A stretch of 11,833 nt of DNA from a virus (Duplodnaviria > Heunggongvirae > Uroviricota > Caudoviricetes). Positions 2,688 through 3,118 of this stretch are shown piece by piece. Positions within the stretch are counted from its first letter, which is position 1. Each line of letters starts with the position of its first letter. Position numbers and translations under genes: made by a program. The stretch is from IMG/VR virus record IMGVR_UViG_2778261064_000021, positions 1 to 11,833 of that record; one strand, given 5' to 3'. The notes under the pieces were generated by a model. It was not told where the DNA came from. It was given only the letters and a program-made list of their open reading frames with translations, and did not search any database.

Positions 2688-2717
2688 ATAAAACAAAGGC
2701 GACCGGGGGCGGTCGCC
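2688..2717 (-). terminator. Rho-independent terminator for the minus-strand RHH gene
   Basis: 8-bp GC stem ggcgaccg/cggtcgcc with 4-nt loop (2698-2717); on the minus strand it is followed by the U-rich tract tttgttttat. Confidence 0.5.
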
Positions 2718-2808
2718 AATGGGAAAACACTAAACATAAGCCCGAACATCATAGCGATTTGCTGGCTGGTGGGCAATGTGATCAGTGTGCTGGCTTGCTG
2801 GTGGGCTA

Positions 2809-2985
2809 TCAGCTTTTTGACTCAATGCCGCGTTTATCTAATTCGCGTCGTAAAAGCCTTTTGATCCATCCAGATCGGTTATCGTCGCCATCTTCTTTCA
2901 TGGCAATACTTAAACGCTCGAACAAATCTGCGTCTAGGCGTAGTTGTACGGAAAATCTTTCTTTTTTGTTGTCATTGGTTGACAT
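2809..2985 (-). CDS. Ribbon-helix-helix (CopG/Arc/MetJ-type) DNA-binding protein, 58 aa
   Basis: MSTNDNKKERFSVQLRLDADLFERLSIAMKEDGDDNRSGWIKRLLRRELDK has the RHH layout (N-terminal beta-strand, then two helices); AGAGG Shine-Dalgarno upstream on the minus strand; own terminator downstream. Internal start of track ORF 2809..3093. Confidence 0.6.
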   Translation of the reverse strand: MSTNDNKKERFSVQLRLDADLFERLSIAMKEDGDDNRSGWIKRLLRRELDKRGIESKS

Positions 2986-3118
2986 GGTAAACCTCTGTAG
3001 TGATAATGCCATTAAGGTGACAATGTATACCAATGACACCACAAAAACAACGCCCCGCAGTGGTGGCACACATGCAGGGCGTCTAACCACCAACGATAAC
3101 GAGAGTATCGAGGTAGCT

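What the first reader, a model, noticed from the sequence alone, without database searches (positions are those of the whole stretch)
2688..3118. Minus-strand RHH gene, convergent with alpA and divergent from the replication operon, is a candidate island repressor
A 58-aa RHH protein is encoded antisense to the track's 214-aa ORF, with its own terminator (2688-2717). It diverges from the Icd-like/primase operon across about 130 bp (2986-3118). That layout fits a master repressor controlling the replication operon, or a lone antitoxin-like regulator.
Basis: inference. Interest (0 to 1): 0.45.

Follow-up and report, generated by a model that had tools for sequence, protein, structure and literature searches.

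The report
Satellite repressor cassette plus hidden antisense RNA
A real 58-residue DNA-binding-type gene and a previously unnoticed small antisense RNA sit head-to-head with the replication operon of a phage-parasitic island; together they look like the missing "off switch" of Gram-negative phage-inducible islands, though no experiment has tested this.

Summary
A 58-aa gene lies on the minus strand (2985->2812, stop 2809-2811). It is under purifying selection (pN/pS 0.16) and ends at its own terminator (2717-2698 plus T-run). It is convergent with alpA. The + strand 214-aa ORF is a shadow-frame artefact; the real + gene is a 68-aa Icd-like protein (3119-3325).

The protein looks ribbon-helix-helix: only weak RHH hits, and RHH structural neighbours. 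All 80 Icd-like satellite loci examined carry an RHH-family gene in this slot, and so does the prototype EcCICFT073. Twelve of 13 sister alleles have their own exact 10-13 bp repeats, mostly palindromic, around the icd promoter. Against a 99.5%-identical island, window 2787-3036 is swapped as one cassette.

The "130-bp divergent region" is not a plain promoter region. The -35 of a near-consensus icd promoter (2979-3007) overlaps the RHH start codon. Positions 3120->3039 encode a conserved minus-strand RNA of about 82 nt, with three covarying helices, 63 G.U versus 1 A.C, an invariant extended -10 and a terminator. It is antisense to the icd leader and ribosome-binding site and is absent from Rfam.

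Best model: a P22 immI-like double lock. Repressor function is inferred; this allele's operators are unresolved.

The parts
2386..2670 (+). alpA (94 aa), convergent with the RHH gene. No T-run follows the shared hairpin on the + strand.
   Evidence: Pfam Phage_AlpA 4.7e-12. PHROG 2790, 2.5e-38. Sequence read.
2688..2717 (-). Intrinsic terminator of the RHH transcript: stem-loop 2717-2698, then U-tract 2697-2688.
   Evidence: Terminator scan. dG -16.5 kcal/mol, with the same hairpin downstream of the gene in L002 and L012.
2809..2985 (-). 58-aa RHH-family gene, including the stop codon. It encodes the candidate repressor of the icd promoter.
   Evidence: Coding signature with pN/pS 0.16. 96 homologues, with 23 invariant residues. 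Sub-threshold hits to RHH_1, NikR-N and YlcI_YnfO_N. AF2 model. Foldseek neighbours are RHH proteins.
2992..2996 (-). Shine-Dalgarno AGAGG of the RHH gene, 6 nt before the ATG.
   Evidence: Read directly from the sequence.
2787..3036 (.). Exchangeable cassette: the RHH gene plus the icd promoter/operator region. It is the only stretch without homology to an island that is otherwise 99.5% identical over 1-2786 and 93% over 3037-3317.
   Evidence: blastn of the window against L001. L001 carries a YlcI/YnfO-type gene with its own repeats there.
2979..3007 (+). Promoter of the Icd-like/primase operon: TTGACA-17-GATAAT (11/12 match). The predicted start is about 3014. The -35 overlaps the RHH start codon.
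   Evidence: Promoter scan. GTTGACAT is invariant in 15 loci. The same TTGACA-17-TATAGT layout occurs in Pasteurella Pmp8.
2986..2993 (.). Candidate operator O1 (GGTAAACC), abutting the -35. It occupies the position of the perfect palindromes of sister alleles (GGTAATTACC, GGTGTACACC, TGGTACGTACCA, GGTATATACC). Inferred.
   Evidence: Positional analogy. No exact repeat exists in this allele.
3016..3033 (.). Candidate operator O2 / conserved box (GGTGACAATGTATACCAA). It contains the invariant AATGTA (3022-3027). On the minus strand this reads TACATT, the only invariant TAnnnT, so it is also the best candidate for the -10 of an RHH promoter. Function is inferred.
   Evidence: Invariant columns. 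It is an inverted copy of the box at the RHH start in most loci (10/12 match). 2978-2993 versus 3016-3031 match 12/16 by eye, which is not significant alone.
3039..3120 (-). Conserved structured RNA of about 82 nt, fully antisense to the icd 5' UTR, SD and start codon. Outer helix 3119-3112 with 3091-3084. Stem-loop 3110-3106 with 3098-3094. Terminator hairpin 3083-3049. U-tract 3048-3039.
   Evidence: RNAalifold. Pair counts of 95.4% paired with 11 double-change pairs on 15 sequences, and 97.9% with 12 on 68 distinct sequences; 0/500 shuffles in both. 63 G.U versus 1 A.C. MFE -36.4 kcal/mol, z = -4.7. The model R1 finds it in 99 of 100 sources. No Rfam match.
3126..3134 (-). Extended -10 promoter TGATATGAT of the antisense RNA, inside icd codons 3-6. 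The predicted start is 3120-3118.
   Evidence: G, T, A and T of TGnTAnnnT are invariant in 37 distinct upstream sequences, although the Icd N-termini differ.
3119..3325 (+). Icd-like gene (68 aa), first gene of the replication operon, with SD GAGG at 3110-3113. Its stop overlaps the next ORF (ATG 3315).
   Evidence: NCBIfam NF033153, 3.2e-19. Start supported by the SD and by stops upstream in other loci. ORF list.
2681..3118 (+). Non-coding 5' part of the 214-aa ORF: a shadow frame of the RHH gene followed by the icd leader.
   Evidence: The interval is also covered by covarying RNA helices.

Best explanation
The window is a capsid-encoding phage-inducible chromosomal island of EcCICFT073 type. 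Positions 2688-3134 are its control region for replication, a two-layer lock.

(1) Protein layer. The 58-aa RHH protein binds as a dimer or tetramer at the near-consensus promoter of the Icd-like/primase operon. That promoter's -35 hexamer is built into the RHH start codon. Binding keeps the promoter shut in the quiescent island, and probably also tunes RHH's own leftward transcription. The leftward promoter must lie face-to-face inside the icd leader. The best candidate -10 is TACATT at 3027-3022; the alternative is read-through from the antisense promoter.

(2) RNA layer. An RNA of about 82 nt is made from an extended -10 promoter embedded in the first icd codons. It ends at a hairpin just upstream of the RHH gene and is perfectly complementary to the icd leader, Shine-Dalgarno and AUG. 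It would block translation, or trigger cleavage, of any escaping icd mRNA. Through overlapping stop/start codons it would also affect the downstream replication genes.

Induction by the helper presumably works through AlpA. One route is transcription from alpA running through the cassette against the RHH gene. The other is AlpA acting at the icd promoter.

Shown here: the gene, its selection, the promoter and terminator motifs, the RNA structure and its strand, the universal synteny, and the cassette exchange.

Inferred: DNA binding, repression, the discrete small RNA, and the induction route.
For: Gene and fold:
- The gene is real and constrained.
- Pfam RHH_1 scores E 0.02. NikR N-domain scores 0.0012. 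YlcI_YnfO_N scores 0.0039.
- Sister alleles hit Arc, HicB and RepB-RCR_reg, all RHH families, weakly.
- hhalign of A1 against A4 (2 YlcI/YnfO proteins plus 3 closer tandem paralogues) gives 98.6%.
- The AF2 model has an extended N-terminus plus two helices, pLDDT 76.5.
- Foldseek neighbours are mainly RHH proteins: NikR at probability 0.93, then ParG, PutA, MazE, TacA and Arc.

Slot and operators:
- The slot is conserved in 80/80 Icd-like IMG/VR loci, in EcCICFT073 and in Pasteurella Pmp8.
- Twelve of 13 sister alleles have exact 10-13 bp repeats, mostly palindromic, bracketing the -10 of the icd promoter. Each repeat is reached by 0-9 of 500 shuffles, and each allele has its own sequence.
- The cassette boundaries are 2787 and 3036.
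- The promoter matches 11/12, and GTTGACAT is invariant.

RNA:
- Searches support it. These include a 51.7-bit match in Pasteurellaceae at the same position and strand.

Context:
- The literature states that a global repressor of Gram-negative PICIs is unclear and that AlpA is an activator (PMC6092414).
Against: - All family matches for this protein are below curated thresholds. Foldseek E-values exceed 0.5. hhalign against Arc alone finds nothing.
- This allele has no exact repeat of 6 bp or more in its 67-bp control region. Its best approximate repeats (11/12, 12/16) are within chance expectation for a region of this size, by my estimate.
- No promoter for the RHH gene passes the scan.
- The U-tract of the RNA's terminator is weak in many loci (GCUUUAC), so the RNA may be mainly a leader of the RHH mRNA rather than a discrete small RNA.
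- In EcCICFT073, AlpA over-expression alone induces the island (PMC6092414). A repressor therefore need not be 'master'.
- No transcript data were available.
Confidence: 0.6

Rival explanations
1. The antisense RNA is the real immunity factor, by the logic of P1 c4 or P4 CI. The RHH protein would be only an autoregulator or accessory factor. It might be translated from read-through of the RNA's leaky terminator and have little effect on the icd promoter.
For: The RNA is more conserved than the protein cassette. It travels with icd across all RHH alleles. Many loci have a weak U-tract, and no independent RHH promoter passes the scan. P4-like and P1-like elements use RNA immunity (PMC10111431).
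Against: Allele-specific repeats sit exactly on the icd promoter core in the sister alleles. That is hard to explain unless the proteins act there. The icd promoter is near-consensus, so it needs a repressor to stay silent.
Confidence: 0.2
2. The RHH protein is an antitoxin-like neutraliser. It would be one half of a toxin-antitoxin-type pair with the Icd-like division inhibitor, or a lone antitoxin remnant, acting mainly by protein-protein contact.
For: Many RHH proteins are antitoxins; MazE, TacA and VapB are among the structural neighbours. Icd-like proteins are annotated as division inhibitors. The RHH-RNA-icd module survives in decayed islands next to TA and defence genes (L004, L016, L017).
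Against: The protein has no C-terminal toxin-binding extension: it is 58 aa, all of it RHH core. The genes are divergent rather than co-transcribed. No ORF follows the RHH gene. The Icd-like sequence stays constant while RHH alleles are swapped, which is the opposite of co-evolving partners.
Confidence: 0.07
3. The RHH protein acts on the helper phage or on co-resident satellites as an interference or cross-immunity factor, rather than on its own replication operon.
For: The related YlcI/YnfO family takes its name from genes of lambdoid prophages (my knowledge, not tested here). The many alleles resemble immunity groups.
Against: tblastn finds this family in only one of 50,697 phage records, and that record is itself a 15-kb satellite-like genome. 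The repeats of the sister alleles lie in the satellites' own control regions.
Confidence: 0.08

Closest known systems
Phage P22 immI region (Mnt and Arc RHH repressors, sar antisense RNA, ant)
   Same: A small RHH repressor gene is read away from a strong promoter that it is proposed to shut. A short cis-antisense RNA covers the ribosome-binding site of a downstream gene (P22 described in PMC2629481). Promoters overlap, so polymerase occupancy is mutually exclusive; for P22 this rests on my memory and was not checked.
   Different: The controlled operon here is replication (Icd-like to primase), not an antirepressor. The antisense RNA targets the first gene, and its promoter lies inside that gene's first codons. 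There is no detectable sequence relation to Arc. The host element is a satellite, not a phage.
Phage P1 immI (c4 RNA - icd - ant) and P4 CI RNA; Rfam C4 / IsrK
   Same: An Icd-type first gene is held down by an antisense RNA that masks its ribosome-binding site. RNA immunity is known in P4-like satellites and in some Gram-negative PICIs (PMC10111431).
   Different: c4 and CI are trans-acting RNAs processed from the same strand as their target. [quoted passage not shown] No C4 or IsrK match appears even at E <= 10.
Stl / Rpr master repressors of Gram-positive PICIs (SaPIs)
   Same: The proposed role is the same: a repressor gene next to, and read away from, the excision/replication operon of a phage-inducible island (PMC6092414).
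   Different: By my knowledge, Stl proteins are larger helix-turn-helix proteins inactivated by helper proteins. They are read in the same direction as int. Here the protein is a 58-aa RHH, convergent with alpA, paired with an RNA, and induction is known to need AlpA.
YlcI/YnfO family (NCBIfam NF041551), the occupant of the same slot in EcCICFT073
   Same: It has the same genomic slot, the same size and RHH-like pattern, and the same neighbouring antisense RNA and Icd-like gene. The profile comparison scores 98.6%, although the comparison alignment A4 also contains closer paralogues.
   Different: The window protein scores 17.2 bits against a 30-bit cutoff. YlcI-type cassettes are longer, carry a second small gene, and leave room for back-to-back promoters.
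Type I toxin-antitoxin pairs with 5'-overlapping antisense RNA (SymE/SymR type)
   Same: A constitutive small RNA is antisense to the 5' UTR and start of an mRNA for a growth-inhibiting protein.
   Different: Toxicity of this Icd-like protein has not been tested. The target here is the first cistron of a long replication operon, so the RNA would gate a life-cycle decision rather than only a toxin.

Membership tests
Ribbon-helix-helix superfamily (Pfam RHH_1 PF01402 / Arc PF03869) | Score above the curated HMM threshold | tested here: not met
   RHH_1 scores 15.3 bits against a 20.5 cutoff, E 0.02. NikR N-domain scores E 0.0012 but lies far below its full-length cutoff. Sister alleles hit Arc, HicB and RepB-RCR_reg below threshold.
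Ribbon-helix-helix superfamily (Pfam RHH_1 PF01402 / Arc PF03869) | N-terminal beta-strand followed by two helices | tested here: inconclusive
   The AF2 monomer has helices 19-32 and 37-51, preceded by an extended segment with the alternating pattern VQLRLD. A strand cannot form without a partner chain. Foldseek's best neighbours are RHH domains, but with E > 0.5.
Ribbon-helix-helix superfamily (Pfam RHH_1 PF01402 / Arc PF03869) | Dimerises through an antiparallel sheet that reads the major groove of repeated operator sub-sites | not testable with these tools
   Only monomer prediction was available. Sister alleles have duplicated repeats, mostly palindromic, at the promoter; this allele has no exact repeat.
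YlcI/YnfO family (NF041551) | Score above the NCBIfam cutoff (30 bits) | tested here: not met
   17.2 bits, E 0.0039.
P22 immI-type control region | RHH repressor gene read away from the promoter it controls, with the operator overlapping that promoter | tested here: inconclusive
   The layout is met. Operators are clear in sister alleles but only candidate boxes exist here.
P22 immI-type control region | Small cis-antisense RNA over the ribosome-binding site of a controlled gene | tested here: met
   Met at the level of sequence evidence: a conserved promoter, covarying helices on the antisense strand and a terminator. The transcript itself has not been observed.
P22 immI-type control region | The controlled gene is an antirepressor | tested here: not met
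   The operon is Icd-like, small ORFs, a DUF4222-like gene and a D5-type primase.
Rfam C4 / IsrK immunity RNAs | Match to the covariance model | tested here: not met
   No hit in 2600-3400 on either strand at E <= 10. The only gathering-score hit in the window is the int-alpA RNA.
Type II toxin-antitoxin antitoxin | Co-transcribed adjacent toxin gene, and a toxin-binding extension on the antitoxin | tested here: not met
   Ninety nucleotides of non-coding sequence and a terminator follow the gene. The protein consists of the RHH core only.
Gram-negative PICI (EcCICFT073 type) | int, alpA, a primase-type replication module and hijacking/packaging genes, in about 10-15 kb, in one orientation next to a host gene | tested here: met
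   The ORF map. Pfam hits to AlpA and D5 primase. The same order as in annotated islands and in CFT073. Helper-dependent mobilisation was not tested.

The most novel reading that the evidence does not exclude
The exchangeable RHH/YlcI cassette together with the icd-antisense RNA is the long-missing repression ('immunity') system of Gram-negative phage-inducible islands. Its many alleles, each with its own operator sequence, would define immunity groups among co-resident satellites. The helper would induce the island by AlpA-driven transcription, possibly antitermination as shown for Pseudomonas AlpA (PMC7969949, PMC9371919). That transcription would run through the cassette against the repressor gene and swamp the antisense RNA.
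Probability: 0.3. Interest if true: 0.8.

Novelty: new variant of a known kind. Interest (0 to 1): 0.62.

Why it matters
Phage-inducible islands spread virulence, resistance and anti-phage genes. In Gram-positive cocci, their induction is understood through the Stl repressor.

For Gram-negative islands, the founding paper states that a global repressor is unclear and that AlpA is an activator (PMC6092414). Neither that paper, the later PICI papers read here, nor two targeted full-text searches mention these small minus-strand genes or an RNA here.

If the cassette and the RNA are the off switch, several points would follow:
- They would explain how a near-consensus replication promoter stays silent.
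- They would explain why the region is mosaic.
- They would explain how co-resident satellites can avoid cross-talk.

The cassette and the RNA also give precise handles for experiments and for engineering PICI-based delivery vehicles: coordinates, promoter motifs and a covariance model.

The RNA is also a candidate new family for Rfam. DNA similar to 2300-3600 occurs in 1440 of 5426 complete E. coli genomes, mostly the icd side of the query among the listed hits.

Tried and rejected
1. C4/CI-type RNA in the icd leader. Rfam finds none at E <= 10. The conserved helices belong to the other strand.

2. The 214-aa + ORF, and PGAP's 100-aa Icd start at ATG 3023. Both are rejected:
- Other loci have in-frame stops.
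- Indel lengths in the alignment are not multiples of three.
- The stretch is occupied by covarying helices.
- A good SD precedes ATG 3119.
- The PHROG 6196 match to the long form probably reflects the same over-extended gene calls.

3. A leader peptide starting at the invariant AATGTA. It is out of frame with icd in L004 and shows no coding signal.

4. Exact operator repeats in this allele. There are none of 6 bp or more. The approximate repeats are not significant alone.

5. An RNA hairpin between the boxes at 2968-2979 and 3029-3040 (11/12 match). It occurs only in close relatives and has no G.U support.

6. A direct relation to Arc. hhalign finds nothing. A PDB sequence search with the profile gives only E of about 1 to NikR.

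7. A phage origin. The family occurs in 1 of 50,697 phage records, itself satellite-like. The RNA is absent from the phage collection.

8. A back-to-back divergent promoter for the RHH gene.

9. Literature searches for YlcI/YnfO, 'Icd-like', RHH plus PICI, and EcCICFT073 plus repressor. No description of this module was found. Papers in subscription journals are not covered.

Full report
CONTEXT

The window carries the following, in order:
- a tyrosine integrase (1-1227);
- an int-alpA RNA motif (1236-1302; Rfam RF02996);
- a 309-aa unknown gene;
- alpA (2386-2670);
- an operon of an Icd-like gene, small ORFs, a DUF4222-like gene and a D5-type primase (4274-6079);
- ssb;
- a major capsid protein, a decoration protein and a small terminase;
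- the host gene hpt.

This order matches annotated E. coli islands and the prototype Gram-negative phage-inducible island EcCICFT073.

DNA similar to 2300-3600 occurs in 1440 of 5426 complete E. coli genomes. No match covers 80% of the query, so the region is mosaic.

OBSERVATION

The minus-strand ORF runs 2985->2812 with its stop at 2811-2809. It has an AGAGG Shine-Dalgarno 6 nt upstream.

It has 96 homologues of 57-58 aa across Escherichia, Salmonella, Klebsiella, Yersinia, Serratia, Pectobacterium, Morganella, Xenorhabdus and other genera. All are annotated hypothetical. Twenty-three columns are invariant.

In 16 loci, pairwise differences by codon position are 0.22, 0.10 and 0.53, and pN/pS is 0.16.

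The + strand 214-aa frame is the stop-poor shadow frame over this span (pN/pS 0.33). It is broken by in-frame stops within the intergenic interval in L004, L006, L011 and L016. The real + gene is therefore the 68-aa Icd-like protein from ATG 3119, preceded by GAGG at 3110-3113. PGAP's 100-aa call from ATG 3023 is an over-extension.

The terminator is a minus-strand element: stem 2717-2698 followed by TTTGTTTT. On the + strand no T-run follows it.

FOLD

Every family match is weak, but all point the same way:
- RHH_1, E 0.02;
- NikR N-domain, E 0.0012;
- YlcI_YnfO_N, E 0.0039.

Sister alleles give weak hits to Arc, HicB and RepB-RCR_reg.

The AF2 model has pLDDT 76.5. It shows an extended N-terminal segment with an alternating pattern, then helices 19-32 and 37-51.

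Foldseek's best PDB neighbours are RHH domains: NikR at probability 0.93 and 34-40% identity, then ParG, PutA, MazE, TacA and Arc. Their E-values exceed 0.5.

A profile search of 1.84 billion cluster representatives finds only 15 at E <= 0.001, so the family is narrow.

I treat the RHH fold as likely. Membership of the curated families is not met.

THE CONTROL REGION IS NOT A PLAIN DIVERGENT PROMOTER REGION

The scan finds TTGACA-17-GATAAT at 2979-3007, an 11/12 match. The -35 overlaps the RHH start codon, and GTTGACAT is invariant in 15 loci even though synonymous sites are otherwise near saturation. No back-to-back leftward promoter can fit. Leftward transcription must therefore start to the right of this promoter, so the promoters are face-to-face.

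Between this promoter and the icd start, the alignment shows two hairpins with compensatory changes and invariant blocks.

RNAalifold on the minus strand predicts three helices. Pair counting gives:

| Alignment | Paired cells | Pairs with changes on both sides | Shuffles reaching this |
|---|---|---|---|
| 15 sequences | 95.4% | 11 | 0/500 |
| 68 distinct sequences | 97.9% | 12 | 0/500 |

The second alignment was fitted to the model.

The strand is decided by wobble pairs. There are 63 G.U cells against 1 A.C. The structure is 95% paired on the minus strand but only 77% if read on the + strand.

Immediately upstream, inside icd codons 3-6, the pattern TGnTAnnnT has invariant G, T, A and T in 37 distinct sequences. 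The Icd N-termini of these sequences differ. This is the signature of an extended -10 promoter. It predicts a start at 3120-3118.

The last helix is followed by UUGUUUUUGUGG.

The window RNA (3120->3039) folds at -36.4 kcal/mol, z = -4.7. Rfam has no match.

A covariance model built here finds the element in 99 of 100 sources. It is always antisense to, and abutting, an Icd-like start. It is also found in a Pasteurella satellite at 51.7 bits.

The RNA is complementary to the whole icd leader, the SD and the AUG.

WHY THE RHH PROTEIN IS PROBABLY A REPRESSOR OF THE ICD PROMOTER

(a) The slot is always occupied. All 80 IMG/VR loci with a close Icd-like gene have a divergent RHH-family gene 134-215 nt upstream. 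Seventy are YlcI/YnfO-type, nine are of a paralogous type and one is the window type. EcCICFT073 has the YlcI/YnfO type. Pmp8 has a 44%-identical homologue in the same layout.

(b) Sister alleles carry their own repeats. In 12 of 13 sister alleles the control region holds exact 10-13 bp repeats, mostly palindromic, reached by 0-9 of 500 shuffles. The sequence differs between alleles: GTGTTnAACAC, GTGGGCCACACC, GTGGCTGACACC, TGTGCGCACA, GGTGTACACC, GGTAATTACC, TGGTACGTACCA and others. In most alleles the copies sit in the promoter spacer next to the -35 and again just after the -10.

(c) The cassette is exchanged as a unit. Against an island 99.5% identical over 1-2786 and 93% over 3037-3317, only 2787-3036 is replaced. 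That stretch is the RHH gene plus the promoter/operator region, and it ends exactly at the 3' end of the antisense RNA. This is the mosaic pattern of immunity regions.

The weak point is that the window allele itself has no exact repeat of 6 bp or more. The candidates are:
- GGTAAACC at 2986-2993, in the position of the sister alleles' palindromes;
- the family-conserved box 3016-3033, with the invariant AATGTA;
- the inverted relation of the boxes TTGGTTGACATTGG and CAATGTACACCA (10/12 match in most loci).

None of these is significant alone. On the minus strand AATGTA reads TACATT. It is the only invariant TAnnnT there, so it may instead be, or may also be, the -10 of the RHH promoter. Sister alleles have TACAAT or TACTTT at the corresponding place, just upstream of their second palindrome.

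MODEL

A strong replication promoter is shut by the RHH protein. Escaping transcripts are neutralised by a constitutive cis-antisense RNA. Both components lie on the strand opposite to alpA and to the operon.

Induction needs AlpA (PMC6092414). The hairpin after alpA has no + strand T-run, and Pseudomonas AlpA is an antiterminator (PMC7969949, PMC9371919). Read-through from alpA against the RHH gene and into icd is therefore a plausible route. It is untested.

COMPARISON WITH KNOWN SYSTEMS

The closest analogue is P22 immI, which has RHH repressors Mnt and Arc plus the sar antisense RNA (PMC2629481). P1 immI has an antisense RNA upstream of icd.

Here the target is replication, the RNA is cis-encoded at the first gene, and there is no sequence relation to Arc or C4.

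The two PICI papers I read most closely do not mention these genes or the RNA. The founding paper calls a Gram-negative repressor 'unclear'. A later genomic survey describes a 'Bro zone' with C4/IsrK RNAs in some islands. Other searches found nothing. Subscription-only papers could not be searched.

VERDICT

The component types are known, but the arrangement and the RNA family appear undescribed, so I file it as a new variant of a known kind. Interest: 0.62.

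Noticed in passing
window 1236-1302 (+): An int-alpA RNA motif (Rfam RF02996; 55.2 bits against a gathering score of 35.8) lies right after the integrase stop and before the 309-aa unknown gene.
   Followed up: no
window 3023-3118 (+); L002 6397-6699: PGAP annotates the Icd-like gene as 100 aa from the upstream ATG. The comparative data favour the 68-aa form from ATG 3119. PHROG 6196/1743 label this family 'transcriptional repressor', apparently without tested evidence.
   Followed up: partly
window 2797-2813 (+): A weak + strand hairpin (7 pairs, 3 GC) is followed by TTTTTG at the 3' end of the RHH gene. It could pause or terminate read-through from alpA and would be a candidate target if AlpA is an antiterminator. 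It was seen only in close relatives.
   Followed up: partly
window 2748-2776 (-), with terminator 2717-2698: A promoter-like site, TTGCCC-17-TATGAT (9/12 match), lies in the RHH 3' UTR. It would give a roughly 50-nt RNA ending at the same terminator. Only the terminator is conserved in L012, so this is probably chance.
   Followed up: partly
L016 6178-6330 (Leminorella grimontii): The RHH gene of a decayed module is followed directly by repeats resembling type I-E CRISPR repeats (GTTTATCCCCGCTNNCGCGGGGAAC) with spacers.
   Followed up: no
L004, L016, L017 (about 4100-5800 of each): In decayed islands, the RHH / antisense RNA / Icd-like module persists next to a DUF1778-like/GNAT-like gene pair and other small regulators. 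A conserved 105-114-aa gene follows icd. Primase and capsid genes are gone, and in L004 the Icd-like ORF is cut to 40 aa.
   Followed up: no
L015 5801-6177, L017 5713-6180, L018 2450-2811: These loci carry tandem pairs of RHH paralogues, 45-51% identical. In L015 and L017 the antisense RNA lies upstream of the first paralogue, so the window-type gene is the second gene there.
   Followed up: partly
L067 1676-1761 and 2421-2505: There are two copies of the antisense RNA element in one viral contig, about 750 bp apart.
   Followed up: no
L001 9483-9656; L021 10243-10416: YlcI/YnfO-type cassettes, including that of EcCICFT073, carry a second small basic gene (57 aa, no family hit) downstream of the RHH-like gene. 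The window cassette lacks it.
   Followed up: partly
window 1-2786 vs L001: The window's left part is 99.5% identical to an island of E. coli O166:H15, inserted after gcd in L001. That island has a different replication module (RepA helicase) and a full HK97-type head module. This shows module shuffling to the right of the cassette as well.
   Followed up: partly
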